DNA of 64,000 nt, from the NCBI RefSeq assembly GCF_044704955.1, contig NC_091989.1, forward strand, positions 85,622,001 to 85,686,000, written 5' to 3'. Under the pieces are notes generated by a model that did no database searches, was not told the DNA's origin, and saw only the letters and a list, made by a program, of their open reading frames with translations. The stretch is from Pristiophorus japonicus (lineage: Eukaryota). This document shows positions 6,056 to 57,689 of the stretch, one piece after another. Within the stretch, counting starts at the first letter, position 1. The number at the start of each line of letters is the position of its first letter. The translations under genes were made by a program, and so were the position numbers.

Positions 6056-8960
6056 ATGAGGAAAAGTGGAGGGCAGAGAAACCCAAGGCAAAGAACAAAA
6101 AGGGCCACTGTACAGCAAAATTCTAAAAGGACAAATGGTGTTAAAAAAACAAGCCTGAAGGCTTTGTGTCTTAAAGCAAGGAGTATCCACAATAAAGTGG
6201 ATGAATTAACTGTGCAAATAGATGTTAACAAATATGATGTGATTGGGATTACGGAGACGTGGTTCCAGGATGATCAGGGCTGGGAACTCAACATCCAAGG
6301 GTATTCAACATTCAGGAAGGATAGAATAAAAGGAAAAGGAGGTGGGGTAGCATTGCTGGTTAAAGAAGAGATTAATGCAATAGTTAGGAAAGACATTAGC
6401 TTGGATGATGTTGAATCTATATCGGTATAGCTGCAGAACATCCAAGGGCAAAAAACGTTAGTGGGAGTTGTGTACAGACCTCCAAACAGTAGTAGTGATG
6501 TTGGGGAGGGCATCAAACAGGAAATTAGGGGTGCATGCAATAAAGGTGCAGCAGTTATAATGGGTGACTTTAATATGCACGTAGATTGGGCTAGCCAAAC
6601 TGGAAGCAATACGATGGAGGAGGATATCCTGGAGTGCATAACGGATGGTTTTCTAGACCAATATGTCGAGGAATCAACTAGGAGGGAGGCCATCTTAGAC
6701 TGGGTGTTTTATAATGAGAGAGGATTAATTCGCAATCTCATTGTGCGAGGCCCCTTGGGGAAGAGTGACCATAATATGTTGGAATTCTGCATTAGGATGG
6801 AGAATGAAACAGTTAATTCAGAGACCATGGTCCAGAACTTAAAGAAGGGTAACTTTGAAGGTATGAGGCGTGAATTGGCTAGGATAGATTGGCAAATGAT
6901 ACTTAAGGGGTTGACTGTGGATGGGCAATGGCAGACATTTAGAGACCGCATGGATGAATTACAACAATTGTACATTCTTGTCTGGCGTAAAAATAAAAAA
7001 GGGAAGGTGGCTCAACAGTGGCTATCTAGGGAAATCAGGGATAGTAGTAAAGCCAAGGAAGTGGCATACAAATTGGCCAGAAATAGCAGCAAACCCGGGG
7101 ACTGGGAGAAATTTAGAACTCAGCAGAGGAGGACAAAGGGTTTGATTAGGGCAGGGAAAATGGAGTACGAGAAGAAGCTTGCAGGGAACATTAAGGCGGA
7201 TTGCAAAAGTTCCTATTGGTATGTAAAGAGAAAAAGGTTAGTAAAGACAAACGTAGGTCCCCTGCAGTCAGAATCAGGGGAAGTCATAACGGGGAACAAA
7301 GAAATGGCAGACCAATTGAACAAGTACTTTGGTTCGGTATTCACTAAGGAGGACACAAACAACCTTCCGGATATAAAAGGGGTCAGAAGGGCTAGTAAGG
7401 AGGAGGAACTGAGGGAAATCTTTATTAGTCGGGAAATTGTGTTGGGGAAATTGATGGGATTGAAGGCCGATAAATCCCCAGGGCCTGATAGACTGCATCC
7501 CAGAGTACTTAAGGAGGTGACATTGGAAATAGCGGATGCATTGACAGTCATTTTCCAACATTCCATTGACTCTGGGTCAGTTCCTATCGCGTGGAGGGTA
7601 GCCAATGTAACCCCACTTTTTAAAAAAGGAGGGAGAGAGAAAACAAGGAATTATAGACCGGTCAGCCTGACATCGGTTGTGGGTAAGATGATGGAATCAA
7701 TTATTAAGGATATCATAGCAGCGCATTTGGAAAGAAATGACATGATGGGTCCAAGTCAGCATGGATTTGTGAAAGGGAAATCATGCTTGCCAAATCTTCT
7801 GGAATTTTTGAGGATGTTTCCAGTAGAGTGGACAAGGGAGAACCCGTTGATGTGGTATATTTGGACTTTCAGAAGGCTTTTGACAAGGTCCCAGACAAGA
7901 GATTAATGTGCAAAGTTAAAGCACATGGGATTAGGGGTAGTGTGCTGATGTGGATTGAGAACTGGTTGTCAGACAGGAAGCAAATAGTAGAAGTAAATGG
8001 GTACTTTTCAGAATGGCAGGCAGTGACTAGTGGCGTACCGCAAGGTTCTGTGGTGGGGCCCCAGCTGTTTACATTGTACATTAATGATTTAGACGAGGGG
8101 ATTAAATGTAGTATCACCAAATTTGCGGTTGACACTAAGTTGGGTGGCAGTGTGAGCTGCGAGGAGGATGCTATGAGGCTGCAGAGTGACTTGGATAGGT
8201 TAGGTGAGTGGGCAAATTAATGGCAGATGAAGTATAATGTGGATAAATGTGAGGTTATCCACTTTGGTGGTAAAAACAGAGAGACAGACTATCACCTGAA
8301 TGGTGACAGATTAGGAAAAGGGAAGGTGCAAAGAGACCTGGTTGTCATGGCACATCAGTCATTGAAGGTTGGCATGCAGGTGCAGCAGGCGGTTAAGAAA
8401 GCAAATGGCATGTTGGCCTTCATAGCGAGGGGATTTGAGTACAGGGGCAGGGATGTGTTGCTACAGTTGTACAGGGCCTTGATGAGGCACACCTGCAGTA
8501 TTGTGTACAGTTTTGGTCTCCTAACTTGAGGAAGGACATTCTTGCTATTGAGGGAGTGCAGCAAAGATTCACCAGAATGATTCCCGGGATGGTGGGACTG
8601 ACCTATCAAGACAGACTGGATCAACTGGGCTTGTATTCACTGGAGTTCAGAAGAATGAGAGGGGACCTCATAGAAACGTTTAAAATTCTCTCGGGTTTAG
8701 ACAGGTTAGATGCAGGAAGAATGTTCCCAATGTTGGGGAAGTCCAGAACCAGGGGTCACAGTCTAAGGATAAGGGGTAAGCCATTTAGGACCGAGATGAG
8801 GAGAAACTTCTTCACCCAGAGAGTGGTGAACCTGTGGAATTCTCTACCACAGAAAGTAGTTGAGGCCAATTCACTAAATATATTCAAAAGGGAGTTAGAT
8901 GAAGTCCTTACTACTCGGGGGATCAAGGGGTATGGCAAGAAAGGAGGAAGGGGGTACTGA
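6056..8960 (+). pseudogene. CR1 ORF2 (APE endonuclease plus reverse transcriptase), disrupted
   Basis: GITETW, GVVYRPP, MGDFN and SDHN (APE); YRPVSLTS, QHGF, YLDFQKAFDKV and GVPQGSV (RT). Split across ORFs starting at 6056, 6461, 7783, 8227 and 8526. Confidence 0.95.
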
Positions 8961-9064
8961 AGTTTCATGTTCAGCCATGAACTCATTGAATGGCGGTGCA
9001 GGCTAGAAGGGCTGAATGGCCTGCTCCTGCACCTATTTTCTATGTTTCTATACTTCTGCAAACT

Positions 9065-11818: not shown

Positions 11819-12130
11819 TTGTTCTTCGAACATCGTCCAAAGTTACTCAGATCGGGGAACGCAAGATGACGCTAGTTGGTTCAAATGTATCTTTCTATTG
11901 CACTTTCTCGCTTTCTGATGAGCAGGCAGAAATTACAGTGTCCTGGTGGCGACACGGTTACTATAGTTACTTAAAACCAGAGAGCAGGAAAGAGTTCCAT
12001 GCAAAGAGAAGCTCTAACAACTTTCACCTTCTGAATGTTAATATTCAGGAGGCCGGAATTTATTACTGTGCAGTGACATATCAGGGAAAATCAATGGGAA
12101 ACGGAACAGGTACATAACTTATTGTATATA
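11819..12130 (+). CDS. Exon 2, V-set domain with J-like G strand (contains in-frame TAA)
   Basis: Acceptor TTGCAG|. Motifs KVTQ, VSFYC, VSWW, EAGIYYCAV, GNGTGT*LIVY. Phase-1 donor A|GTAAGG at 12131. Confidence 0.9.
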
Positions 12131-15737: not shown

Positions 15738-16040
15738 CTGCTCCAGTTCCCTTGAAGATTCTCCTCAAAGCATCCGAAAGAGTTGTGCCTTCTCCTCTCA
15801 AACTGGAGTGCAGAACAGCCGGATTTTGCCCGAAGGAATTTAAACTCACTTGGCATAAAGATGGCATTGAACTTCTCTCTGGATTTGGAACAGTACAACA
15901 CATAAATGCGGATGGACTGTATGAAGTTTCCAGCTCTTTTGAAGGGGCACAGCCTGTCCAGAGCGAGGCATTTTATACCTGTGAAGTGTCGCATGTTTCT
16001 CTCCTAATCCCAGCCAGTGTTACCTACATTGCAGCCAAAG
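15738..16040 (+). CDS. Exon 3, C1-set Ig domain
   Basis: Acceptor AAAG|CT. Reads APVPLKI...LECRTAGFCPKEFKLTWHKDG...NADGLYEVSS...YTCEVSHVSL (C1 hallmarks GFxP and YxCxVxH). Phase-1 donor G|GTGATA. Confidence 0.9.
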
Positions 16041-16646: not shown

Positions 16647-16760
16647 GTAAATTCCAACATATAAGTTATGCTCTGATTGCTAGACTTACAGGTGGCGCAT
16701 TTGGCTTTAACCTGCTTACAATCATGATCGTTAAGCGAGTTCAATTCATTACCCGTGACG
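16647..16760 (+). CDS. Exon 4, transmembrane GKFQHISYALIARLTGGAFGFNLLTIMIVKRVQFITRD
   Basis: Acceptor TTTTAG|; hydrophobic stretch followed by KR; phase-1 donor G|GTAGGA. Confidence 0.8.
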
Positions 16761-16866
16761 GTAGGAACATTTTAGATTTTCTTCAACTTTCACTGATACT
16801 GTTTCTGATTAGATTGTGGTAGAATTAAGCATTGAACGAAATGTTTTACATAGATTAAAGTACTTA

Positions 16867-19800
16867 ATATCGGTGGAAGTTTATGTTTATGGTATTAAAT
16901 TCGGCGCTGCATGTAGCGATTCAAACTGCCGGTTGCTATCAATGTATTTAGAATGTACATCTGGAAATCAATCCATTTTAGTATACGCTGCATCAAAATC
17001 TCGATTATATAATTTGCTGCATTCATTAAAGGTATATAGAATTGCAGGTAATAAACAGCACAGAAACAAGTCATCTGACCCAACTAATCCGTGCTGGTGT
17101 ATCCACTCCACACAAGTCTTCCCCATTATATCTGCCTCAGCTCAGCCTTTCAGCATATAATTATATTCGCTTTTCTCTCATGTACTCGTCAAGATTAATT
17201 TTGAAAGCATCTAATCTATTTTTCTCAAACACTTCCTCCGGTAGCGATTTCCACATTCTAACCAGTTTCTGAGTAAATATATTGATCCTTGTTTCCCTAT
17301 TCGGATATTAGTGACTATATTGTATTTATGTCCGCTCTTTCAGTACACTCCCAAAATTGCAAATAATCTCTCCACAACCACCGTGTTCAATCCATCCACA
17401 ACTGAAAAGGCATGTATCGGGTCTCTTCTCTGTCTCCACTTCCCCGTTAGCTATAATCTCTCAGGTGCAGGACCTTCGTTGTAATTCTTTTTTTTGCATC
17501 TTTCGAAGTGCTTCTATGCACTTTTTATAGTATGGAGGCCACAACTGTGCAAAGTAATCCAGTGCGGCCTGACCAGGGTTATGTATAATTTTAACAGAAC
17601 TACATTACTTTTGAATTCTTTCCCAATAGAAAAAAGTCTCATTGCTTTGTGTGCATTTAATTCTTTTGCTGAACTGCGCTCATTTTAGTGATCTGATCAC
17701 GATTATCCCTCGACCACTTCGCTTTTCTACCCCATTCAGTTTCTGATTTTCAAAGATCAAGGTGATGCTTCTGTTTTGCTTACCGAAGTGCATCATCTCT
17801 CAAATATCTTCAAGATTTTGATATGTTAACGCTCATTTGAGGCATAACTTTACAGTCTGCAAGTTTTCAAACATCTACATTTATTATTTTCCTTCTTGCT
17901 GAATGCTGGTTGTAGCCCCTTGCTGATATCACCATGCAAACTTTGAAATTTGATTCCATATTCCTAATTTCACTTTTACATTATGAATAACAGTGATCGT
18001 GGCACTGATCTTTGTAGTATAGCACATTCTTACTTGCCATAATATGAAAAACTACACTTTAACCCTTCTCTATGCTTTTTCTTTGGCTATTCGATTCTTC
18101 CTTTTGCTTCCAAATATATAGTTGGGGGAATTTTTCCAAAACTATATTCAAAAGAATAATTTAAAAGCATTTTGGAATTGGAACATTTGATAATCCTCAT
18201 CAATTAACTGAACAGATGTAAATCAGGCAATTAAAGCATGTTACTGTTACCAAATTTGTGATGTAGCCATATTTAAGTTAATGTTTAGAATCTATGCTGA
18301 CTCATGCTGATCAATTGAGTTTATGTTAGAAATGTTGTCGAGTATTATTATTTGTGGTGATGTACACGTAATTGTCCTGTTTTAAATTGCCTGAAATTTG
18401 AAGAGAGGTTCACTGATTGCCAGCTTTGGCGCACTGCTAGAGGTTGGAAATCCTACAAGAACCCAACTGATTGCTTGCTATCTTAATACAAGAATCGTCG
18501 AATCAAAGATTTCAGGACCCAATAATGTGTCCATCGTAAGGCAGAATAAATACTTTAGTACCATTCTTCTTCGGTATGTAGTTGTCACCAACTTTTTTAC
18601 ATATCAATAGATTGGGATCTATAGTTGTTTGGATTTTAAGGCAAAAGGGATATAGGGATAGTGCAGGAAAGTAGAATTGAGGTAGATGATCAGCCATAAT
18701 CGTATTGAATGGTGGAGCAGCATCGAAGGGCCGACGGGTCTAAACCTGCTCCTGTTTCTCATGTTGTTTTATAAATGTTAAGTTTTGATTTCATAAATTG
18801 TAAAAAGTCAGCAGAGGCGTCAAAGAGTTGGATGCAGTGAGGATATTTCCACTCATAGGAGAAAATTAATCTTGGGGCCACAGTCTCAGAATAAGGGGCC
18901 GTCAATTTAAAGCTGAGATGAGGCTGAATTTCTTCTCGCAGAGGGTTATAAATCTGTGGAATTCTCTGCCTCAGAGTGCTTTGGAGGCTGGGTCATTGAA
19001 TATATTTCAGACGGAGATAGACAGATTTTGAGCGATAAGGGAGTAAATGGTTATAGGGAGCTGGCAAAGAAGTTGAGCTGAGTCCATGATCGGATGAGTA
19101 ATGATCTTATTAAATGGCGGAGCGGGCTCGAGGGGTCAAATGGCCTACACCTGCTCCATTTTCTTATGTTCTTATGAAGCTCTCATGGACATACTTAGAA
19201 ACCAGAAGGTGCTATTTAAATGGTATTCAATACCTCGTATTTTTATATTAATAACACATTTATGCAGCAATTAGTGGAAATCTTACATTGCTTCAGATCC
19301 GGGATATGTTTAAATCAAGTTAGCACTAATATTTGTTGAGAGGTTATGAGTTGCAATGTTTTATTCGGAGAATTGAGCTGAGATTGGATTTTCCCAAAGT
19401 GGACTGCCAATTGAGTGTAAATAAGCGTCAGCGCAGTGGGCCGCATTCAAGGTGGATCTCCTGAGGGTACAGAGCAAGTATGTTCCCTTAAGGATAAAGG
19501 TGGGCTAACAAACCTAGAGCACGCCAAATCTCAAGGGACATAGAGGGTAAGATAAAGAAAACAAGGGAAGCTTATGATAGATACCAAGAACTCAAAACTG
19601 CATCAACTCTAGAGAAGTATAAGAATTAAGGCGTGCAATTAATGAAGAAATCAGGAAAGCAAAGAGAGAGCATGAAAGAATGTTGGAAAGTAAAATCAGG
19701 GAAAACCCGAAGATGCTTTGTAAATACATTAAGAGCAAGAGGATAACTAGAGCAACCGTGGGGCCTATTAAAGACAAAAAAGAAAATCTATGTGTGGAGG

Positions 19801-22800
19801 CAGAAGACATGGGTATGATTCTTAATTAAAAGTTTGCATTTGTCTTCACAAAACATAGGGGTGATGAAGGCTCTGCAATGCGGGAGGAGGAGTGTGAAAT
19901 ATTAGACGAGGTAAACATAGTGAGAGAGGAAGTAATAACGGGCTAAATAAGACCAGCCATGATATTAAATTTCAGAGCAGGCTCGAGGAGTCAAATGGCC
20001 TATACCTAATCCGATTTTTTCTGTCCTTATTGAACTTGTTATGCCTGATGTTGCGTTATTAATTATCGCTGTGCAAGTAGAAATATCGAAGAAAATATTA
20101 AAATATACGTGTAAACAAGTCTTAATTTAGTATAAGTTTGGATTTATTATGACTGCTCTATATTTACATTTACATGCAGTATAAAAACGCATTTTGAATA
20201 ATTCAGTATAAATTCGCTGGGATAATGATATATTTATAAATTTCAGCCTCCTTATGTTTAGGATTAAAGCAAAGATTAGTAAATAAGACATTCGTTCACC
20301 GACAATTAACATTATACATTTCTCCCTACCTCATTTTTGATACAAAGACAATTAATTCCTTTCTAAATTATTAGTGCTTTCGTGAAAGAAATATAAGTTA
20401 AGACGCTTATGACATAACTAGAAATATTAAGCCTGATTGTGTGGTCGGCGGCGTGGCTAAGAAGCATGCTACTGACACCCGAACGACATCCTCTCATAAC
20501 CCGTGCGAACCCCGCTTCGTGAAGCTGCTGCAGAGTTGTGCACAGGGTAGTGGCCCACTGATCCCTTGTCGCAACGTTGTGCAAATGCGAACATGGGATC
20601 GTGTCGAGCGTTGTTCCTTGCACTTACTGACTCTTAGTCCATCAGGAATGAAAGAAAATATAAATCCCCGAGGCCACAGAACTATGCTTTGCAGAAAGTC
20701 CATCGAAGCAGTTGTCCATGTTTAATTTTACTCTCTTCAGTACATATTCCAAATGATTGCTTCAGCATTATGCATCGATTCTGATTCAGTTTGATACATT
20801 GAACAATTTGATTTTAGGATTCGGTGTTGAAATTGCTGAATATAAAAATAACAGCTCATTTTAAATAATTTAGCATTCGGAAATTGTAATTAATTAATAA
20901 ATTACGATTACTGTAAATGTAATATCCGTGGAAGTTTATGTTTATGGTATTAAGTTCGGTACTGCATGTAGTGATTCAAACCGCCGGTTGCTATCAATGT
21001 ATTTAGAACTTACATCTGGAAATCAATCCATTTTAGCATGCGCTAAATTGACATCTCGATAATATAATTTGCTGCGTTCATTAAATGTTTATAGAATTGC
21101 AGGTAATAAACAGCACAGAAACAGGTCATCTGACCCAACTTATCCATGCTGGTGTATCCACTCCACACAAGTCTTCCCCATTATATCTGCCTCAGCTCAG
21201 CCTTTCAGCATATAATTATATTCGCTTTTCTCTCATGTACTCGTCAAGATTAATTTTGAAAGCATCTAATCTATTTTTCTCAAACACTTCCTCCGGTAGC
21301 GATTTCCACATTCTAACCAGTTTCTGATTAAATATATTGATCCTTGTTTCCCTATTCAGATATTAGTGACTATTGTGTATTTATGTCCGCTCTTTTAGTA
21401 CACTCCCAAAATTGCAAATACTCTCTACACAACCACCGTGTTCAATTCATCCACAACTGAAAAGGCGTGTATCGGGTCTCTTCTACGTCTCCACTTCCCA
21501 GTTAGCTATAATCTCTCAGGTGCAGGACCTTCGTTGTAAGTATTTTTTCATCTTCCCCAGTGCTTCTATGCAATATTTATAGTATGGAATCCATAACTGT
21601 GCAAAGTAATCCAGTGTGGCCTGAGCAGAGTCATGTTCAATTTTAACTTTTGAATTCTTTCCGACTAGAAATAAGTCCCATTGTTTTCTGCGCATTTAAT
21701 TGTTTTGCTGAACTGCGCTAATTTTAATGATCTGATCACACATATCCCACGACCACTTCGCTTTTCTACCCCATTCAGTTTCTGACTTTCAAAGATCAAG
21801 GTGATGTTTCTGTTTTGCTTACCCAAGTGCATCATGTCTCAAATATCTTCAAGTTTTTAATATGTTAACGCTCATTTGACGCATAACTTTACAGTCTGCA
21901 AGTTTTCAAACGTCTACATTTATTATTTTCCTTCTTGCTGAATGCTAGTTATAGCCCCTTGCTGATATCACCTTGCAAATTTTGAAATTTCGTTCCTTTT
22001 TCCTAATTTCATATTTAAATTATGAATAACAGTGATCGTGGAACTGATCCTGGTGGAATACCACAATCTTACTTCCCACAATATGAAAAACTACACTTAA
22101 CCCTTCTCCATGCTTTTTCTTTGGCTATTCGATTCTTCCTTTTGCTATTCAATTCTTCCTTTTGCTTCCAACTTTATAATAGGGGAAACTTTTCCAAAAC
22201 TATACTCAAAAGAAAAATTTAAAAGCAGATTAAAATTTGACAACGTGACAATCCTCATCAATTAAGTGAACATATATAAATCAGGCAATTAAAGCCTGTT
22301 GCTGTTGCCACATTTTTGATGTATACATATTTAAGTTATATTTAGAATCTATGCTGATCAATTCATTTTATGTTAGAAATTTAATCTAGTATTATTATTT
22401 GTAATGATTTACATGTAATTGTTCTGTATTAAATTGCCTGAAATTTGAAGAGAGATTCACTGATCGCCAGATTTGACGCTCTGCTTGAGGTTGGAAATCC
22501 TACAAGAACCCAACTGATTGCTTGCTATCTTAATACAAGAATCGTCGATCATAAGGCACAATAAAAACTTTAGTACCATTCTTCTTCGATCTATAGTTGT
22601 CACCAACTGTTTTAATTATCGATAGATTGGGATCTATAGAAGTTTGGATGTTCAGGGGAAAGAGATTGGGAATAGTGCAGGAAAGTAGATTTGAGGTAGA
22701 AGATCAGCCATGATCGTATTGAATGGAGGAGCAGCATCGAAGGGCCGACGGGTCTAAATCAGATCCTATTTCTCATGTTCTTATATAAATGTTAAGTTCT

Positions 22801-24912
22801 GATTTCATAAATTGTAAAAAGAGAGCAGAGGTGTCAACGAGTTGGATGCAGTGAGGATATTTCCACTCATAGGAGAAAATAAATCTAGGCATTACAGTCT
22901 CAGAATAATGGGCCGTCAATTTAAAGCTGAGATGAGGCTGAATTTCTTCTCGCAGAGGGTTATAAATCTCTGAAATCTCTGCCTCAGAGTGCTTTGGAGG
23001 CTGGGTCATTGAATATATTTCAGACGGAGATAGACAGATTTTGAGCGATAAGGGAATAAACGGTTATGGGGAGCTGGCAAAGAAGTTGAGCTGAGTCCAG
23101 GATCAGATGAGTCATGATCTTATTAAATGGGAGAGCGGGCTCAAGGGGTCAAATGTCCTACTTCTGCTCCCTTTTCTTATGTTCTTATGAAGCTCTCATG
23201 GACATACTTAGGATCCAGAAGGTGCTATTTAAATGGTATTCAATACCTCGTATTTTATATTAATAAAGCATTTATGCAGCAATTACTGGAAATCTTACAT
23301 TGCATCAGATCCGGGATATGTTTAAACCAAGTTATCACTAATATTTGTTGAGAGGTTATGAGTTGCAATGTTTTATTCGCAGAATTGAGCTGAGATGGGA
23401 TTTGGCCAAAGTGGACTGCTAATTGAGTGTAAATAAGTGTCAGAGCAGGGGAACGCATTCAAGGTGTTTTCCTGAGGGTACATAGCAAGTATGTTCCCTT
23501 CAGGAAAAAGGTGGGCTAACAAACCTAGAGCACACCAAATCTCAAGGGACATACAGGGTAAGATAAAGAAAACAAGGGAAGCTCATGACAGATACCAAGA
23601 ACTCAAAATTGCATAAACTCTCGAGCCGTATGAGAAGTTAAGGGGTGCAATTAATAAAGAAATCAGGAAAGCAAAGAGAGAGTATGGTAGAATGTTGGAA
23701 AGTAAAATCAGGGAAAACGCAAAGATGCTTTATAAATACATTAAGTGCAAGAGGATAACTAGAGCAACCGTGGGGCCTATTAAAGACAAAAAATAAAATC
23801 TGTGTATGGAGGCAGAAGACGTGGATATGATTCTTAATGAATAGTTTGCATCTGTTTTCACAAAACATAGGGGTGATGAAGGCTCTGCAATGCGGGAGGA
23901 GGAGTGTGAAATAGTAGACGAGATAAACATAGTTAGAGAGGAAGTAATAACGGGTTTAATATGATCAGCCATTAAATGGCAGAGCAGGCTCGAGGAGTTA
24001 AGTGGCCTATTTCTAAAACTATTTCTTATGTCCTTATTGAATATGTTATGCATAATGTTGCATTATTAATTATCGCTGTGGAAGTAGATATATCAAAGAA
24101 GAAAATAGTAACATATACGCTTAAACAAGTCTTTATTTAGTGTAAGGTTGGATGTATTATTACTGTTCTATGTATACAGTTACATGTAGTATAAAAACAC
24201 TTTTTGATTAATTCAGTATAAATTCGCTGGGATAATGACGTGTTTATAAACTTCAGCCTCGTTTTGTTAAGAATTAAAGCAAAGATTAGTAAATAAGACA
24301 TTCGTTCACCGACAATTATCATTATACATTTTTGCCCACCTCATTTTTGATACAAAGATCATTAATTCCTTTCTAAATTATTTAGTGCTTTCATGAAACA
24401 AATATAAGTTAAGACGCTTATGACATAACTAGAAATATTAAGCCTGATTGTGTGGTCGGCGGTATGGCTAAGGAGCCACCGACACCCGAACGAAATCCTC
24501 ACATAACCCGTGTGAACCCCGCTTCATGAAGCTGCTGCAGATTTGTGGTCCACTGATCCCTTGGTGCAACGTTATGCAAATGCGAATATGGGATCATGTG
24601 GAGCGTTGTTCGTTGCACTTACTGAATCTTAGCCCATCAGGAAAGAAAGAAAATAGAAATCTTTGATGCAACAGAACTATGCTTTGCAGAAAGTCCATCT
24701 CAGCAGCTGTGCATGTTAAATTTTACTATCCTCACTGCATATTCCAAATGATTGCTTTAGCATTTTGCTTCAATTTCTGATTCAATTTGATACCTTGAAC
24801 AATTTGATATTAGGATTCGGTATTTAAATTGCTGATTATAAAGAGAACAGCTCATTTTAAATAATATAGCAATTGGAAATTTTATTTAATTAGTAAATTA
24901 CGATTACTGCAA
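16867..24912. repeat. Tandem duplication of a ~4.05-kb intronic unit (copy 1 ~16867-20915, copy 2 ~20921-24912) containing old CR1 fragments
   Basis: Both copies start AATATC.GTGGAAGTTTATGTTTATGGTATTAA and end AAATTACGATTACTG. They are colinear throughout; paired ORFs include 17042/21085 and 20127/24137. Confidence 0.95.
18516..18535 (+). CDS. Candidate phase 1-to-0 micro-exon (GPNNVSI); alternative acceptor at 18441
   Basis: TTTCAG|GACCCAATAATGTGTCCATC|GTAAGG would bridge the TM exon to the phase-0 tail exons. Polypyrimidine tract is weak. Confidence 0.25.
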
Positions 24913-25746
24913 TTATATTCAATACACAAACCAAGATTTCAACATTAATATAATTCTATCGAATATAGTATATCATGAGAGACTTTTTACCGAAGGGTTT
25001 CTTAAATCCATAAAATTCTATTATGATGCTTTATATCAGCTTTAGCATAAACGTAGCTAAAAATGATGCACTGTTCTCATCCCCCTGCCATCATGATGCG
25101 CAAAAGGCTGCTGCGCTTGTTTGCACTAGCTGTAAAAAAAATGCAGGTTATCGAATGCATAGTAGGGGCATAATTAGGCCAACTATTCACCGGCTCGTTG
25201 AATTCAATGGGTCGCTGAAACCTGCAGCAAAGTTAAGTGGAATTGGAATTTGACAAATCACATGTTCTTGATTCAGCGCAACTGGTCAATTTCAGAAGCA
25301 GTGTGATGGTGCACTCAGTCTTGACATCATCAAACCAACCGTGAATTAAAGGCAAAGGATCAGCACAAATGGCTAAACTGCAACAAACGGACCTTATGAT
25401 CCAATGGGCCTGTTTCTATGCAATAACTTATTTAATTACTTGACTATATTTCTCTTTAGATTCCTTGTGGAATTTTACCAATAACGATGGGCATGAGGAG
25501 GGGCTAAGATTACTATTGTTACCAAAAATGGACACTAAATATAATGATTTGTTACTCATGACAAAGTTGCAATTTGTGAATATGTTTCGCACAACAATCC
25601 TCCCAACTCTTCAATTTTATATAATATGGAAATGTAGCAGAAGGATTTTGAAGTATTCCCCTGGAATTCCCATGAGGTTCTATTGAACTTCAGCAGTTCA
25701 ATATAACCTCCTATACTGAGGAAAAGGGACCTGAGTTTTATTTTAT

Positions 25747-27753
25747 TTGCCTGCCACGAAAGCTTTGAACAAGGCTACAAATAGCATAAAAGGGAAGGTG
25801 GCTCAACCGTGGCTATCAAGGGAAATCAGGGATAGCATTAAAGCCAAGGAAGTGGCATACAAATTGGCCAGAAATAGCAGCGAACCTGGGGACTGGGAGA
25901 AATTTAGAACTCAGCAGAAGAGGACAAAGGGTTTGATTAGGGCAGGGAAAATGGAGTACGAGAAGAAGCTTGCAGGGAACATTAAGACGGATTGCAAAAG
26001 TTTCTATAGATATGTAAAGAGAAAAAGGTTAGTAAAGACAAACGTAGGTCCCCTGCAGTCAGAATCAGGGGAAGTCATAACGGGGAACAAAGAAATGGCG
26101 GACCAATTGAACAAGTACTTTGGTTCGGTATTCACTGAGGAGGACACAAACAACCTTCCGGATATAAAAGGGGTCGGAGGGTCTAGTAAGGAGGAGGAAC
26201 TGAGGGAAATCCTTATTAGTCGGGAAATTGTGTTGGGGAAATTGATGGGATTGAAGGCCGATAAATCCCCAGGGCCTGATGGACTGTATCCCAGAGTACT
26301 TAAGGAGGTGGCCTTGGAAATAGTGGATGCATTGACAGTCATTTTCCAACATTCCATTGACTCTGGATCAGTTCCTATGGAGTGGAGGGTAGCCAATGTA
26401 ACCCCACTTTTTAAAAAAGGAGGGAGAGAGAAAACAGGGAATTACAGACCGGTCAGCCTGACATCAGTAGTGGGTAAAATGATGGAATCAATTATTAAGG
26501 ATGTCATAGCAGTGCATTTGGAAAGAGGTAATATGATAGGTCCAAGTCAGCATGGATTTGTGAAAGGGAAATCATGCTTGATAAATCTTCTGGAATTTTT
26601 TGAGGATGTTTCCAGTAGAGTGGACAAGGGAGAACCAGTTGATGTGGTATATTTGGACTTTCAGAAGGCTTTCAACAAGGTCCCACACAAGAGATTAATG
26701 TGCAAAGTTAAAGCACATGGGATTGGGGGTAGTGTGCTGACATGGATTGAGAACTGGTTGTCAGACAGGAAGCAAAGAGTAGGAGTAAATGGGGACTTTT
26801 CAGAATGGCAGGCAGTGACTAGTGGGGTACCACAAGGTTCTGTGCTGGGGCCCCAGCTGTTTACATTGTACATTAATGATTTAGACGAGGGGATTAAATG
26901 TAGTATCTCCAAATTTGCGGATGACACTAAGTTGGGTGGCAGTGTGAGCTGCAAGGAGGATTCTATGAGGCTGCAGAGCGACTTGGATAGGTTAGGTGAG
27001 TGGGCAAATGCATGGCAGATGAAGTATAATGTGGATAAATGTGAGGTTATCCACTTTGGTGGTAAAAACAGAGAGACAGACTATTATCTGAATGGTGACA
27101 GATTAGGAAAAGGGGAGGTGCAAAGAGACCTGGGTGTCATGGTACATCAGTCATTGAAGGTTGGCATGCAGGTACAGCAGGCGGTTAAGAAAGCAAATGG
27201 CATGTTGGCCTTCATAGCGAGGGGATTTGAGTACAAGGGCAGGGAGGTGTTGCTACAATTGTACAGGGCCTTGGTGAGGCCACAACTGGAGTATTGTGTA
27301 CAGTTTTGGTCTCCTAACCTGAGGAAGGACATTCTTGCTATTGAGGGAGTGCTGCGAAGGTTCACCAGACTGATTCCCGGGATGGCGGGACTGACCTATC
27401 AAGAAAGACTGGATCAACTGGGCTTGTATTCACTGGAGTTCAGAAGAATGAGAGGGGACCTCATAGAAACGTTTAAAATTCTGATGGGGTTAGACAGGTT
27501 AGATGCAGGAAGAATGTTCCCAATGTTGGGGAAGCCCAGAACCAGGGGACACAGTCTAAGGATAAGGGGGAAGCCATTTAGGACCGAGATGAGGAGGAAT
27601 TTCTTCACCCAGAGAGTGGTGAACCTGTGGAATTCTCTACCACAGAAAGTTGTTGAGGCCAATTCACTAAATATATTCAAAAAGGAGTTAGATGAAGTCC
27701 TTACTACTAGGGGAATCAAGGGGTATGGTGAGAAAGCAGGAATGGGGTACTGA
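25747..27753 (+). CDS. CR1 ORF2 C-terminal part (reverse transcriptase), intact 668-aa frame lacking the endonuclease
   Basis: YRPVSLTS, QHGF, YLDFQKAF, GVPQGSVLGP, KFADD. The first ~14 codons come from flanking DNA. Confidence 0.9.
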   Translation: MPATKALNKATNSIKGKVAQPWLSREIRDSIKAKEVAYKLARNSSEPGDWEKFRTQQKRTKGLIRAGKMEYEKKLAGNIKTDCKSFYRYVKRKRLVKTNVGPLQSESGEVITGNKEMADQLNKYFGSVFTEEDTNNLPDIKGVGGSSKEEELREILISREIVLGKLMGLKADKSPGPDGLYPRVLKEVALEIVDALTVIFQHSIDSGSVPMEWRVANVTPLFKKGGREKTGNYRPVSLTSVVGKMMESIIKDVIAVHLERGNMIGPSQHGFVKGKSCLINLLEFFEDVSSRVDKGEPVDVVYLDFQKAFNKVPHKRLMCKVKAHGIGGSVLTWIENWLSDRKQRVGVNGDFSEWQAVTSGVPQGSVLGPQLFTLYINDLDEGIKCSISKFADDTKLGGSVSCKEDSMRLQSDLDRLGEWANAWQMKYNVDKCEVIHFGGKNRETDYYLNGDRLGKGEVQRDLGVMVHQSLKVGMQVQQAVKKANGMLAFIARGFEYKGREVLLQLYRALVRPQLEYCVQFWSPNLRKDILAIEGVLRRFTRLIPGMAGLTYQERLDQLGLYSLEFRRMRGDLIETFKILMGLDRLDAGRMFPMLGKPRTRGHSLRIRGKPFRTEMRRNFFTQRVVNLWNSLPQKVVEANSLNIFKKELDEVLTTRGIKGYGEKAGMGY

Positions 27754-27850
27754 AGTTGCATGTTCAGCCATGAACTCATTGAATGGCGGTGCAGGCTAGA
27801 AGGGCCGAATGGCCTACTCCTGCACCTATTTTCTATGTTTCTATGTTTCT
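25788..27850 (+). mobile_element. Young 5'-truncated CR1 LINE
   Basis: Uninterrupted RT frame, (TTCTATGT)n tail, and a possible TAGCAT target-site duplication (25782-25787 and 27850-27855). Confidence 0.95.
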
Positions 27851-28229
27851 AGCATCAGTAGGCTTAGCGGCAATGAGTCACGCTCCATTTTGAAAGGGGG
27901 CTCTTATTGGGTGTCCAAAGCACTTGCCTGTTTAAGGATGTCGGCCAGTTAAATAAGGAATTCGGGATACAATGACATAAACAGGACCCAGAATTACACT
28001 TTAGGTCAGAACAGGACATAGCCTGTGAACAGTTCCATTAGTAATGGAATAATGGCTCAAAGAGGCACACAGGTAATTGTGAAATTACGTGTGTATCCTG
28101 GCTGCGAAGGAGTAGCAATTTGCCATGCTGGTAATTTTGCTGGCCCAATTTTGGGAGGTCCGTTTGACGCCCCATAACTATCTTCTTTGTTAATGAAGCC
28201 AGTGTCTCAAAATGGCGGCCGGCTCTTCG

Positions 28230-29511
28230 TTTATCGAAGTTATGGCAGACGTTCGCGAGGACTCATGTGAAAATTCATCCCATTTGTCCCTAAATCCTGA
28301 AAGGTTATTGGTTTCTCACCCGTGAGAAGTGCGAAGCATTCCCTTCCTTATTTCTTCTTTCATCCACTTTCTTGCAACCAGCTACGTTATTCGTAGGGAA
28401 AGGCGGAGGCTCCTCAATTCCTGATCGTATCCACTGTAAAATTAAACAAATGGGTCAAGTAAGAGGCTCATTATAATTCTAATATAAGTGGAACATTATG
28501 TTCCCAGTCAGCAGACCTCTATAGAAAAAAAACAGTGTGTCTTGATGAGAGAACGGCAATAGTTCAAACTTGTACAGTGCTTGAAGCTACAGGATAAATT
28601 GTTTCATCCGTATGGACGACGAAGACCAGCGAACACTCCGCCAGTCCGTCAGCCAAATCGTAAATTCGACACCGAACTGCATAAACTGGGGTAATTTTGA
28701 AATTGTCCAATAGTGTAAATGGCATGACATATGCTCAAACACTAGATATATAAATCTCCTAGTTTCCCTTCCCACTTAAGTAAATGTAAATGTAAATGGA
28801 AGTATTTAACAAACAGGAAGGCTAGTGGATATTGCATGTTTTACAATTTGGTTTGAAGGCAAAATTAATGCCACTGTCTATTTTTGCCGTTTGTAGCGTT
28901 TCCCCCGATTTGGGTTGGTTGGTCATTTGAGAAAGTGGTCAGACAAATTCTAGGCGTGCATGGCATATTTATGTGCGATATAATGAAGGAGATGCTCAGC
29001 TATCAGAAATGCTTGAATGTGATACTGATACAAGTGATTGGCTTAATATCTAGTACCTTTCAATAGAAAATGGAATACGTTTTGCACTATTGCTAGGACG
29101 GATACATGTGTTCTCAGTTAAACATAAATACGGATGAAACAATTTATCCTGTAGCTTCAAGCACTGTACAAGTTTGACCTATTGCCGTTCTCTCATCAAG
29201 ACACACTGTTTTTTTTCTATAGAGGTCTGCTGACTGGGAACATAATGTTCCACTTATATTAGAATTATAATGAGCCTCTTACTTGACCCATTTGTTTAAT
29301 TTTACAGTGGATACGATCAGGAATTGAGGAGCCTCCGCCTTTCCCTACGAATAACGTAGCTGGTTGCAAGAAAGTGGATGAAAGAAGAAATAAGGAAGGG
29401 AATGCTTCGCACTTCTCACGGGTGAGAAACCAATTACCTTTCAGGATTTAGGGACAAATGGGATGAATTTTCACATGAGTCCTCGCGAACGTCTGCCATA
29501 ACTTCGATAAA
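28230..29511. repeat. 384-bp inverted repeat (28230-28613 and 29128-29511) with a 514-bp spacer
   Basis: The arms are reverse complements; only two mismatches were seen by eye. Confidence 0.95.
29308..29421 (+). CDS. Candidate cytoplasmic exon WIRSGIEEPPPFPTNNVAGCKKVDERRNKEGNASHFSR (alternative phase-1 acceptor at 29321)
   Basis: TTTAATTTTACAG| acceptor, open 38-codon frame, CGG|GTGAGA phase-0 donor in frame with the next exon. Confidence 0.55.
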
Positions 29512-29735
29512 AGAGTCGCCAAAATCCCTTGGAAAAAGAAACAGAGTAAATGCCCTTTCTTCGATTTCAGCAAAGCCTCCAAGAAGGAAGAGTGGCAGCA
29601 ACCCCACTACAATTCCCCTCAAACTCTTCACATTTCAGCACTTCTTCGCTCTAGCTGCTCCATATAATGTGTGTGTAAAAGTCAATAAAACACAAAATCG
29701 ATGACCAAACGACTCTCAAACATTTGGTTTTACAG

Positions 29736-29846
29736 GAGGAAAAAGGGACAACTGATTACAAGCTGACATATGCGGATCTGGAATTGACCGCCTCGAAGAA
29801 AACTGCAAAGGCTTCAAAAAAGGAACAGAACGAAGTGTACTCACAG
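29736..29846 (+). CDS. Cytoplasmic exon with ITIM LTYADL
   Basis: TTTTACAG|EEKGTTDYKLTYADLELTASKKTAKASKKEQNEVYSQ|GTAAAG, phase 0/0. Confidence 0.85.
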
Positions 29847-29992
29847 GTAAAGCTGAAAATCTACGTTGAAATCAGTGATTTTGGTTTATATTAAAATAGA
29901 CTAAACACGTATTTTATAAATTATGAGGACGGGTTATTTCAATGGTCAGATTACAAAAAAGACGAACTCTATGTTTAATGTTCTTGTCACAG

Positions 29993-30094
29993 GTCAAACA
30001 GCAAGCTGCTGGTAACAGGCTGGCATACGTGTCTTTGCAGACGACTCTCAACAACACGACAGGACCTAATGTGAAAGGAAAGTTCGCAGTTTAG
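29993..30094 (+). CDS. Terminal exon with ITIM LAYVSL
   Basis: TTGTCACAG|VKQQAAGNRLAYVSLQTTLNNTTGPNVKGKFAV*. Completes EVYSQV across the junction. Confidence 0.8.
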   Translation, partial: VKQQAAGNRLAYVSLQTTLNNTTGPNVKGKFAV

Positions 30095-31124
30095 AGTGAG
30101 GTGTAGAATAACGGATAAATGTGACGAACTGACAAAATCAAGACTCTGAGCAGTTTACCCGCCGATTCCTCCTGTAACGTGGCCTAGAATTTGTCCGAGT
30201 TCCATCGCATGGGCATATATTTATCCTGGGCGGTAGATAAAAAAAGGGCGTAGTGAATCTGAAGCTCCTTTTCAATTCTGGCTGATTTTCCTTTCCTTTT
30301 GCAACAATGGAAAATTAAATTTGACGGTGTGTTAACCACCAGCCGACTAACTAATGGTCTTTAGCCCTAACGCACAGGATGATATTTTAAGCCATGGAAT
30401 ATTCTTGAGATTCCACGGTATCGATTTAGCACTTGTTATAGACCCAACCAAATATAAATTCCCTTGACTTCCGTTGCTATTGGCAATCAATTAGTTATTT
30501 CTGAAAAGTTTCTATCTTCAACCAATATTTTGCAACTGCGCTTCCTTGCTGGAGATGATCCTATCTTGCCCACAAGCAGTCACTGTGGGTAATTGAAACA
30601 TTTGTCAAGGGCCAACAAATGAGTATATCGAATTGGCAACGAGTTTTACATCTCCCTCAATGTTAAAACTAAGCCGACGGGGCGAAATTGGAGGACTTCC
30701 CAAATGTTATCATGTGGTAAATTTCGCACTCTCTCATTCTGCCTGAAGATTCCAATAAGTTGGTACGGTCTACCGCTCCATTCTCAGGGATTTCCTCGGC
30801 AGTTCTTCCCATATCAAGGCGTAATGGCGGAGGAAGAAATATGACAATCCAGTGTAGCTTCTATCCGCCATCTTATACAACATATTTTTCTATATAGGTC
30901 ATGTCCTATTGTTCCTGTTGTTCTGCTGTCCAACGCCAAGCATTTTGCAACTGTTTTCTACACGTGGAACAGGAAATTAATTTATTGCTTTAAAAATATA
31001 TGTTTACCATATCCATGAATAATTACACCGAATGATGTTTGCTATATATTTTAATGCAGCGCAGAGTCAGAGGTAAAGATAATGAACAGTATACCCCAGA
31101 ACATATCAAATCTATTTAAACATA

Positions 31125-57141: not shown

Positions 57142-57689
57142 AAGAGCTGTATAGAGAGAAAGAAAATGGTTTGATGTGAACGTAATGTTGACTTAAATGA
57201 GAAAGTCAGCAGTACTGGAGGAACGGGTGGAGCATAGAATTAGTGCGAGCGGAGTGAGTGATGGCCAAAAATAAAGCGAGATCGAAGTGCAGGAGGATAG
57301 AAAGGCCGAATTGAATGTAATAAAACAAGGCGAACGATTTAGAAATTATACATTCTTAGAGTGGAAGAAACACAAATGTATTTGGATGCAGGAGGGTGAA
57401 TGTCAACTGACCAAGGCGACTTTCATTCGTTACTTGTCTCAATGTCATCTGTCCATCTGTTCTAAAATGTTAGCGCAGAATTGTATTCATGTTTGGATAG
57501 GTTGCGATAGCAAAGATGGCATCGTTTTTATCACTGGAGCCACAAGAATACAAAGAAGGACGTCTGGAATACTGACCGGGCTGCCACAGCATCACAAGCA
57601 CCCCAGAGATATATAATCATGCCTGACAGAAGGAGGCGATTCCGGTCATGAAGCTTCTTGGAAAGAATTATCAAATTCATGCCACTCAC

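What the first reader, a model, noticed from the sequence alone, without database searches (positions are those of the whole stretch)
28230..29511. Near-perfect 384-bp inverted duplication that would bury a whole candidate exon in a pre-mRNA hairpin
Seen: 28230-28613 is the reverse complement of 29128-29511 (two mismatches seen). The sequence is not a recognisable transposon, and the right arm spans the acceptor, exon 29308-29421 and its donor. Inference: this is a recent fold-back or template-switch event. The dsRNA could force exon skipping, attract ADAR editing or yield endo-siRNAs against paralogues. If TM (phase 1) then splices straight to 29736 (phase 0), the frame shifts to GGKRDN* and all ITIMs are lost, giving a short-tailed isoform. 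If a phase-correcting micro-exon exists, the skip is in frame.
Basis: partly seen in the sequence, partly recalled or inferred. Interest (0 to 1): 0.7.

Follow-up and report, generated by a model that had tools for sequence, protein, structure and literature searches.

The report
Backwards intron copy in decaying receptor
A 384-base piece of a shark immune-receptor intron sits copied backwards 514 bases upstream, inside an old repeat, likely as the scar of a DNA-copying slip; the stretch it is predicted to hide in an RNA hairpin is likely not an exon, and the gene itself is likely decaying, so this looks ordinary.

Summary
The repeat is real: 28230-28613 is the reverse complement of 29128-29511, with 2 mismatches. 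It occurs at this locus only, and all four junctions are present in contigs of a DNA run. The left arm is the derived copy. It splits an old MITE-like repeat that resumes at 28614 with about 8-10 bases lost, which is a 1-4-3-2 template switch. The candidate exon 29308-29421 is not supported. It is out of phase with the TM exon (giving VDTIRN*) and has no counterpart in paralogues or in 14 shark homologues. The family's phase-correcting exon is 44 nt. Its likely orthologue lies outside the repeat, at 25460-25503, with a dead donor (CTAAGA). The V exon carries a TAA stop, so the gene is probably decaying. One spliced contig joins a cryptic LINE-derived donor to 29736, skipping both arms. The arm shares at most 18 identical bases with other cluster sequence, so silencing of paralogues is unsupported. 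Six similar local inverted copies occur in 1.26 Mb scanned, and this scan noted such events before in this and other shark genomes. Ordinary repair scar.

The parts
28230..28613 (-). Left arm: derived, inverted copy of 29128-29511, inserted into an old MITE-like repeat
   Evidence: 384 bp, 2 mismatches; single locus; splits the repeat between model positions 110 and about 118
29128..29511 (+). Right arm: template, likely ancestral intron sequence
   Evidence: ancestry inferred from repeat continuity across the left arm
28614..29127 (+). 514-bp spacer (predicted loop), in ancestral orientation
   Evidence: starts with the 3' end of the split repeat on the + strand; one contig in X1
27860..28229 (+). 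5' and middle part of an old MITE-like interspersed repeat (a full copy is about 580 bp with inverted ends); its start is cut by a LINE 3' end
   Evidence: 39 other places at 70-87% identity; alignments
28614..28673 (+). 3' end of the same repeat, resuming after the left arm with about 8-10 bases lost
   Evidence: join of 28229 to 28614 scores 27.3 bits against 15-19 for other joins; shuffle control 156 against 108 +/- 8
29308..29421 (+).
   Evidence: TM + this = VDTIRN*; 44-nt register 29378-29421 lacks an AG and ranks 619 of 12,905 on the exon-end profile; no match in paralogues or homologues
25460..25503 (+). Likely orthologue of the family's 44-nt phase 1-to-0 linker exon (DSLWNFTNNDGHEEG), with a dead donor (CTAAGA in place of GT....)
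   Evidence: rank 1 of 12,905 positions on exon-end profile and 1 of 876 AG-anchored sites; residual spacing 651 nt against 533-621 in 5 of 6 paralogues
11819..12130 (+). V-type Ig exon with in-frame TAA at 12115-12117; possible cryptic donor at 12110
   Evidence: Pfam Ig hits; 22 of 23 printed paralogue V ends read through to a donor; donor scores
15747..16040 (+). C1-set Ig exon, open
   Evidence: PF07654 E 6e-9
16647..16760 (+). Transmembrane exon, phase 1 to 1, least hydrophobic of 11 compared
   Evidence: hydropathy 1.56 against 2.22-3.17
16865..24912 (+). Tandem duplication of two 4-kb units (88% identical) holding antisense LINE remnants; separates TM from the 44-nt exon
21515..21535 (+). 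3' end of a cryptic exon in an antisense LINE remnant (identical 21-mer at 17460-17480); spliced to 29736 in one contig
   Evidence: loose end in run X6, located
29736..29846 (+). ITIM exon 1 (LTYADL), phase 0 to 0, outside the stem
   Evidence: paralogue matches; covered with both junctions by the X6 contig
29993..30094 (+). Ancestral last coding exon (LAYVSL); skipped in the X6 contig
57501..57575 (+). Distal exon joined to 29846 in the X6 contig (only its first 37 bases seen)

Best explanation
A 384-bp stretch of intron is duplicated backwards 514 bp upstream, inside an old MITE-like repeat, likely through one replication or repair event with two template switches, and it is likely an unselected scar in a probably decaying V-C1-TM-ITIM receptor gene. 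Mechanism (inferred): synthesis stopped inside the repeat, switched to the opposite strand, copied 29128-29511, and returned 8-10 bases further on (four-point type 1-4-3-2, mirror 3-2-1-4). Short imperfect microhomologies flank both junctions. The pre-mRNA is predicted to fold the two arms into a long stem, but the stem likely holds only intron, so it is predicted to be spliced out, perhaps edited, without changing the product. The ITIM frame was likely lost independently, by the dead donor at 25504.
For: Shown: single locus; four junctions in read contigs; the repeat's two parts are collinear across the left arm. The family linker exon is 44 nt in 6 of the 6 fetched paralogue regions with both TM and ITIM exons (6 of 10 with a TM call, of 18 regions examined), and shark homologues carry a linker of about 15 residues there (P0012, P0001). 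25460-25503 tops two scans. TAA in the V exon. The only spliced contig skips both arms and uses the 29736 acceptor. Six other local inverted copies in 1.26 Mb, one 99% identical 72 kb away. Literature: type 1-4-3-2 is 31% of human-chimp events (PMC5453318, passages).
Against: RNA evidence is one 169-nt contig at depth 4.8 from one run whose type is not on record, and it is unknown whether that animal carries the left arm; skipping there fits hairpin-driven skipping equally well. The 5' half of 25460-25503 matches the profile poorly (total -2.5 bits against 28-51 for true exons), the donor +1 position was dropped from scoring after the candidate was seen, flanking introns show no alignment above shuffles, and at protein level 25460 (22), 29378 (21) and 29576 (23) score alike. 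The donor at 29422 scores well, and acceptors at 29321, 29360 and 29375 would restore the ITIM frame. A cryptic donor at 12110 could bypass the V stop in frame. C1 and both ITIM exons are open, and two leader-like ATG stretches lie upstream of V. No orthologous locus from another shark was available.
Confidence: 0.8

Rival explanations
1. The hairpin matters for splicing. After the 25504 donor died, a cryptic phase 1-to-0 exon ending at 29421 (acceptor 29321, 29360 or 29375) restored the ITIM tail. The inverted copy now buries it and forces tail-less products, as in the human CHM exon-12 case.
For: These three exons give open TM-to-ITIM frames; donor 29422 scores 4.2; all lie in the predicted stem; the X6 contig skips them; 29378-29421 shares R, N, H and R positions with a paralogue linker; precedent PMC8756506 (passages).
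Against: All three acceptors are weak (-2.6, -2.8, and below -3 for 29375), while the strong one at 29308 is out of frame. No transcript including them was seen. The V exon has a stop. The profile prefers 25460.
Confidence: 0.1
2. Same structure, but the main consequence is a long intronic double-stranded RNA that is ADAR-edited or diced and lowers this gene's or its paralogues' RNA.
For: Predicted stem of about 384 bp, -875 kcal/mol for 28180-29560; a transcript running from 21535 or 17480 to 57501 would contain both arms; editing of long intronic duplexes is established knowledge (recalled).
Against: No paralogue target: longest exact match 14 nt in 336 kb of paralogue loci and 18 nt in 664 kb. 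The stem is intronic. Some editing would be expected under the best explanation too and would not imply function.
Confidence: 0.05
3. The structure arose by an inversion with staggered breaks, or the arms are ends of a transposon, or it is an assembly error.
For: Short-read contigs cannot orient a spacer between near-identical arms, and X1 shows neither mismatch (contigs drop variants).
Against: A staggered inversion would leave the spacer reversed, but the split repeat resumes on the + strand at 28614; joins to the reversed spacer or to 29512 score no better than the flank alone. Arms are single-locus. All four junctions are in read contigs.
Confidence: 0.05

Closest known systems
Template-switch mutation type 1-4-3-2 / 3-2-1-4, four-point model (PMC5453318, passages read; PMC7954356, abstract and first part of introduction read)
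   Same: Switch order 1 < 4 < 3 < 2; a reverse-complement copy of nearby sequence creates a new inverted repeat around a non-inverted spacer
   Different: Those events are tens of bases; this copy is 384 bp with a 514-bp spacer. The ancestral state here is inferred from repeat copies, not from a sister genome.
Human CHM 1,752-bp intragenic inverted duplication with exon 12 skipping, FoSTeS/MMBIR (PMC8756506, passages read)
   Same: Intronic inverted copy a few hundred bases from its template, junction microhomology, predicted pre-mRNA hairpin
   Different: There a validated exon is covered and skipping was measured. Here the covered stretch is likely intron and the gene is likely already broken.
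[quoted passage not shown]
   Same: Small loss at the insertion site plus an inverted copy of neighbouring DNA
   Different: Those are somatic and mostly far larger (cancer) or 5-34 bp (yeast); this one is in a germline assembly.
Shark V-C1-TM-ITIM receptors auto-named SIRP-like, NCR3LG1-like or tapasin-related (P0001-P0014); SIRP-alpha
   Same: V plus C1 ectodomain, TM, tyrosine motifs such as LTYADL, clustered paralogues on one chromosome
   Different: One C1 domain rather than SIRP-alpha's two (recalled). This copy has a V-exon stop and a dead linker-exon donor. Orthology to SIRP was not tested.

Membership tests
Local templated inverted duplication (template switch 1-4-3-2) | Inserted segment is the reverse complement of nearby sequence | tested here: met
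   384 bp, 2 mismatches, 514 bp away
Local templated inverted duplication (template switch 1-4-3-2) | Flanks of the insert were contiguous before the event, spacer not inverted | tested here: met
   old repeat collinear across the left arm; 27.3 bits against 15-19 for other joins
Local templated inverted duplication (template switch 1-4-3-2) | Microhomology at the switch points | tested here: inconclusive
   outer junction: CTCTT shared with a 2-nt offset; inner junction: arm end CCGTAT resembles CCGGAAT in repeat copies, but the lost bases are unknown
Local templated inverted duplication (template switch 1-4-3-2) | Empty site in a sister genome or allele | not testable with these tools
   no related shark genome is held; no empty-site loose end in X1, but contigs drop variants
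DNA transposon / MITE with long terminal inverted repeats | Arms are multicopy in the genome | tested here: not met
   2 matches, the two arms
DNA transposon / MITE with long terminal inverted repeats | Target-site duplication around the whole unit | tested here: not met
   outer flanks differ beyond 2-3 bases; left junction lies inside an older repeat
Hairpin-driven exon skipping (CHM type) | A validated exon or its splice sites lie in the stem | tested here: not met
   29308-29421 out of phase, no homologue, not in the one spliced contig
Hairpin-driven exon skipping (CHM type) | Arms can pair in one pre-mRNA | tested here: met
   predicted only: stem present in MFE and centroid structures; transcript spans the region
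Hairpin-driven exon skipping (CHM type) | Inclusion differs with and without the inverted copy | not testable with these tools
   needs a minigene or an empty-site allele
Hairpin endo-siRNA locus acting on paralogues | At least about 21 nt of identity to target RNAs | tested here: not met
   14 nt in 64 paralogue loci; 18 nt in 664 kb; not all paralogues were fetched whole
Shark V-C1-TM-ITIM receptor cluster | V, C1, TM and ITIM exons homologous to clustered paralogues | tested here: met
Shark V-C1-TM-ITIM receptor cluster | Intact reading frame from V to ITIMs | tested here: not met
   TAA 12115-12117; donor CT at 25504; only cryptic routes restore the frame
SIRP family | Orthology by phylogeny and synteny | not tested
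   only automatic names; PDB profile searches listed no SIRP among the rows shown (60 of 2093 for C1, 38 of 38 for V)

The most novel reading that the evidence does not exclude
The gene is still alive. A cryptic donor at 12110 removes the V-exon stop, a new exon ending at 29421 replaced the dead 44-nt linker, and the inverted copy acts as an RNA-structure switch that turns an inhibitory ITIM receptor into tail-less decoy forms: a repair scar that rewired signalling in a shark immune receptor.
Probability: 0.05. Interest if true: 0.55.

Novelty: new member of a known kind. Interest (0 to 1): 0.15.

Why it matters
As a single locus it matters little. It is a clean, directional example of a template-switch duplication, because an old repeat preserves the pre-insertion state. 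It also shows that a hairpin over splice-like signals need not bury a real exon. The side result may be worth more: about six comparable local inverted copies of 100-350 bp in 1.26 Mb (only three inspected base by base) suggest that this mutation class is common in this shark genome. A genome-wide count could test that. If the novel case were true, it would be a natural example of a repair scar switching an inhibitory receptor to a decoy.

Tried and rejected
(1) 29378-29421 as the orthologue of the 44-nt exon: attractive by eye, but it has no AG and scores 0.4 bits against 15-38 for held-out true exons; rejected in favour of 25460, though its protein-level score is similar. (2) 28614-28690 as an exon whose acceptor the insertion destroyed: it is the 3' end of the old repeat. 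(3) 29445-29545 and 29571-29668 as phase 1-to-0 exons: open, but weak donors (0.3, 1.7) and no homologues. (4) A 7-bp direct repeat 67 bases apart in the right arm as a target-site duplication: seen by eye, untested. (5) A first repeat profile built with long flanks did not separate the joins (153.6 against 153.1 bits); the 3'-end profile did. (6) RNA: no RNA holder listed; X5 and X7 laid nothing on 28614-30700; X5-X7 gave no cover of the C1 or TM exons; none of this is evidence on expression, and what follows TM in RNA remains unknown. (8) Paper searches for this shark receptor family listed no paper describing it, and term look-ups in PMC12227049 were not relevant; two searches of an open-access library do not show it is undescribed. 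No supplements were read. (9) No earlier notes near this place.

Full report
Observation. 28230-28613 is the reverse complement of 29128-29511: 384 bp, mismatches at 28306/29435 and 28563/29178, spacer 514 bp. The arm matches only these two places in the 5.9-Gb own genome (a lower bound). In contigs of DNA run X1 the arm collapses into one 384-nt contig at depth 4.92 against 2.4-2.9 for neighbours, and all four junctions are present. X1 is a same-sample holder, so this argues against an assembly error but is not a second animal. It shows neither mismatch, and such contigs cannot orient the spacer.

Setting. The window lies in a shark genome. A neighbouring gene about 100 kb upstream matches, in the three exon stretches printed, protein P0002, labelled Pristiophorus japonicus, so the species is likely that sawshark (inference). 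The gene has a V exon (11819-12130), a C1 exon (15747-16040), a TM exon (16647-16760, phase 1) and two ITIM-type exons (29736-29846, 29993-30094). It belongs to clusters of V-C1 paralogues on the same contig. Fourteen shark proteins of this layout carry mixed automatic names.

How the repeat arose. 27860-28229 is part of an old interspersed repeat (39 other places); one full copy is 582 bp with inverted ends, so it is MITE-like. Its 3' end reappears right after the left arm, at 28614-28673. The start of the spacer aligns to the copies better than shuffles (top-5 sum 156 against 108 +/- 8, maximum 129), while the reversed spacer, the right flank and the arm start do not (105-117). A profile of 25 copies of the 3' end scores the join 28229-to-28614 at 27.3 bits, against 15.2-18.8 for the flank alone or other joins. 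An earlier profile with long flanks did not separate the joins. In the 6 of 25 copies that matched both anchor motifs the anchors are 19 nt apart, against 11 in the join, so about 8-10 bases were lost. The left arm is therefore the derived copy and the spacer keeps its orientation. The switch order is 1-4-3-2, the type that makes up 31% of high-confidence human-chimp events (PMC5453318, passages). Imperfect microhomology is visible at the outer junction and plausible at the inner one. Fold-back on the nascent strand and an inter-strand switch give the same product and cannot be told apart. Two differences in 384 bp is 0.5%. At the epaulette shark rate of 7e-10 per base per generation (PMC10587355, passages) that is about 3.7 million generations (0.45-13 million), if the rate applies, the mismatches are real and no gene conversion occurred. 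It is younger than the 88% tandem duplication, but not necessarily recent in years.

Is an exon buried? The TM exon ends in phase 1 and 29736 starts in phase 0. Of 18 paralogue regions examined, 10 gave a TM call. Six of these had a 44-nt phase 1-to-0 exon, and they are the 6 with ITIM exons downstream; one more had 41 nt. Shark homologues carry a linker of about 15 residues at this place, and none resembles the 29308 peptide. A profile of the six exons gave 29378-29421 only 0.4 bits against 15-38 for held-out exons. Using the last 12 exon bases and donor positions +2 to +6, 25460-25503 ranks 1 of 12,905 positions (13.6 bits; held-out 7.0-19.2). It also has an AG exactly 44 nt upstream, which 876 of the positions do, and it ranks 1 of those 876. 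It ends HEEG like the paralogues' HEER, HEDQ and FEEQ. With the 8-kb tandem array removed it lies 651 nt from TM, against 533-621 in 5 of 6 paralogues. Its donor reads CTAAGA. Against this: its 5' half matches poorly (total -2.5 against 28-51 bits), I dropped the +1 position after seeing the candidate, intron flanks do not align above shuffles, and protein scores do not separate it from 29378 or 29576. I put about 80% on it being the lost exon. It lies 2.7 kb upstream of the left arm.

State of the gene. The V exon has TAA at 12115-12117 in the last strand. Of 24 paralogue V loci examined, 23 matched the motif and 22 of those read through to a donor five codons later; all 14 homologous proteins continue there. 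A cryptic donor at 12110 could drop the stop in frame at the cost of six residues. The TM segment is the least hydrophobic of 11. C1 and the ITIM exons are open, leader-like ATG stretches exist, and several neighbours also carry stops. A decaying paralogue is the likeliest reading, not a proven one.

RNA. No RNA holder was listed. Of three small runs of unrecorded type, X6 gave one 169-nt contig (depth 4.84) covering 29736-29848 with two loose ends. One maps to a 21-mer ending at GT donors at 17480 and 21535, inside antisense LINE remnants in both copies of the tandem unit. The other maps to 57501 after an AG. So this is spliced RNA that skips 25460, both arms and 29993. Every acceptor option for the cryptic exon, joined to TM, stops before the ITIMs. 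It fits a gene with broken splicing, but it is one contig, would also fit hairpin-driven skipping, and may come from an animal without the left arm. C1 and TM were not covered in X5-X7, which is no evidence either way.

Hairpin consequences. The arms are predicted to pair almost end to end (-875 kcal/mol for 28180-29560; no shuffle control at this length). The 29736 acceptor is 225 nt past the stem and is used in X6. Longest exact arm matches elsewhere are 14 nt in 64 paralogue loci (336 kb) and 18 nt in 664 kb of the cluster, too short for siRNA targeting. Editing could not be tested.

How common. A scan of 1.264 Mb (664 kb of the cluster, three 200-kb controls) found 18 inverted pairs of at least 100 bp and 85%. 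Nine were pairs of common repeats with closer copies elsewhere and two were self-overlapping. In seven, this one included, the arms are closer to each other than to any other copy in the sample: four in the cluster and three in controls. The three cluster neighbours were inspected; one, 72 kb away, is 348 bp at 99.1% with a 27-nt direct repeat around the inserted arm. The control cases were not inspected. Earlier unchecked notes of this scan describe similar events in this and other shark genomes; they supplied two papers that I then read and are not counted as evidence.

Comparison and verdict. It works like the four-point template switch (PMC5453318; PMC7954356, abstract and first part of introduction), like local 2-jumps with loss plus inverted duplication (PMC7025897, section 9 and passages) and like yeast fold-back insertions (PMC11724301, abstract). 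It resembles the CHM duplication structurally (PMC8756506, passages) but fails that class's key test, a validated exon in the stem. Inverted-Alu skipping (PMC13019027) was seen only as a search listing. Verdict: real feature, known kind, likely neutral; interest 0.15.

Noticed in passing
window 25460-25509: Likely orthologue of the family's 44-nt linker exon with its donor reading CTAAGA instead of GT; probable cause of the lost ITIM frame.
   Followed up: yes
window 12115-12117: In-frame TAA in the last strand of the V exon; a cryptic donor at 12110 could bypass it.
   Followed up: partly
window 16865-20916 and 20920-24912: 4-kb tandem duplication (88% identical) in the intron after TM; each unit holds an antisense LINE remnant with a cryptic donor, one of which is spliced to 29736 in run X6.
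   Followed up: partly
window 57501 onward: Distal exon 27.6 kb downstream joined to the ITIM exon in one spliced contig, skipping the ancestral last exon.
   Followed up: partly
L148:6425-7428 (G000:C13:85578425-85579428): Second near-perfect local inverted duplication, 348 bp at 99.1%, spacer 308, with a 27-nt direct repeat around the right arm, 72 kb from this one.
   Followed up: partly
G000:C13:85704255-85705384 (L114) and 85238903-85239512 (L154): Two older local inverted copies (297 bp at 92%; 182 bp at 85%) inside old repeats in the same cluster.
   Followed up: partly
G000:C5:100199140-100200000, C5:100194374-100197253, C13:30152209-30154855: Three candidate local inverted copies in 600 kb of control sequence (98%, 86%, 94%); with the cluster cases this suggests roughly one per 200 kb.
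   Followed up: no
G000:C5:100093198-100093622 and 100183479-100184457: Two self-overlapping palindromic stretches (438 and 986 bp); may be simple AT-rich repeats.
   Followed up: no
G000:C13:84.9-86.1 Mb, 98-102.6 Mb, 104.0-105.1 Mb, 111.4 Mb: At least 38 V and 38 C1 exon matches of a V-C1-TM(-ITIM) receptor family, several with stops; two paper searches listed no description of the family.
   Followed up: partly
window 25735-27851: 5'-truncated CR1-type LINE (type name recalled) with a 672-codon open frame, 95% identical to the copy at 6997-9057; its 3' end cuts the start of the MITE-like repeat.
   Followed up: no
window 29306-29379: 7-bp direct repeat 67 bases apart inside the candidate exon; could be chance or an insertion footprint.
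   Followed up: no
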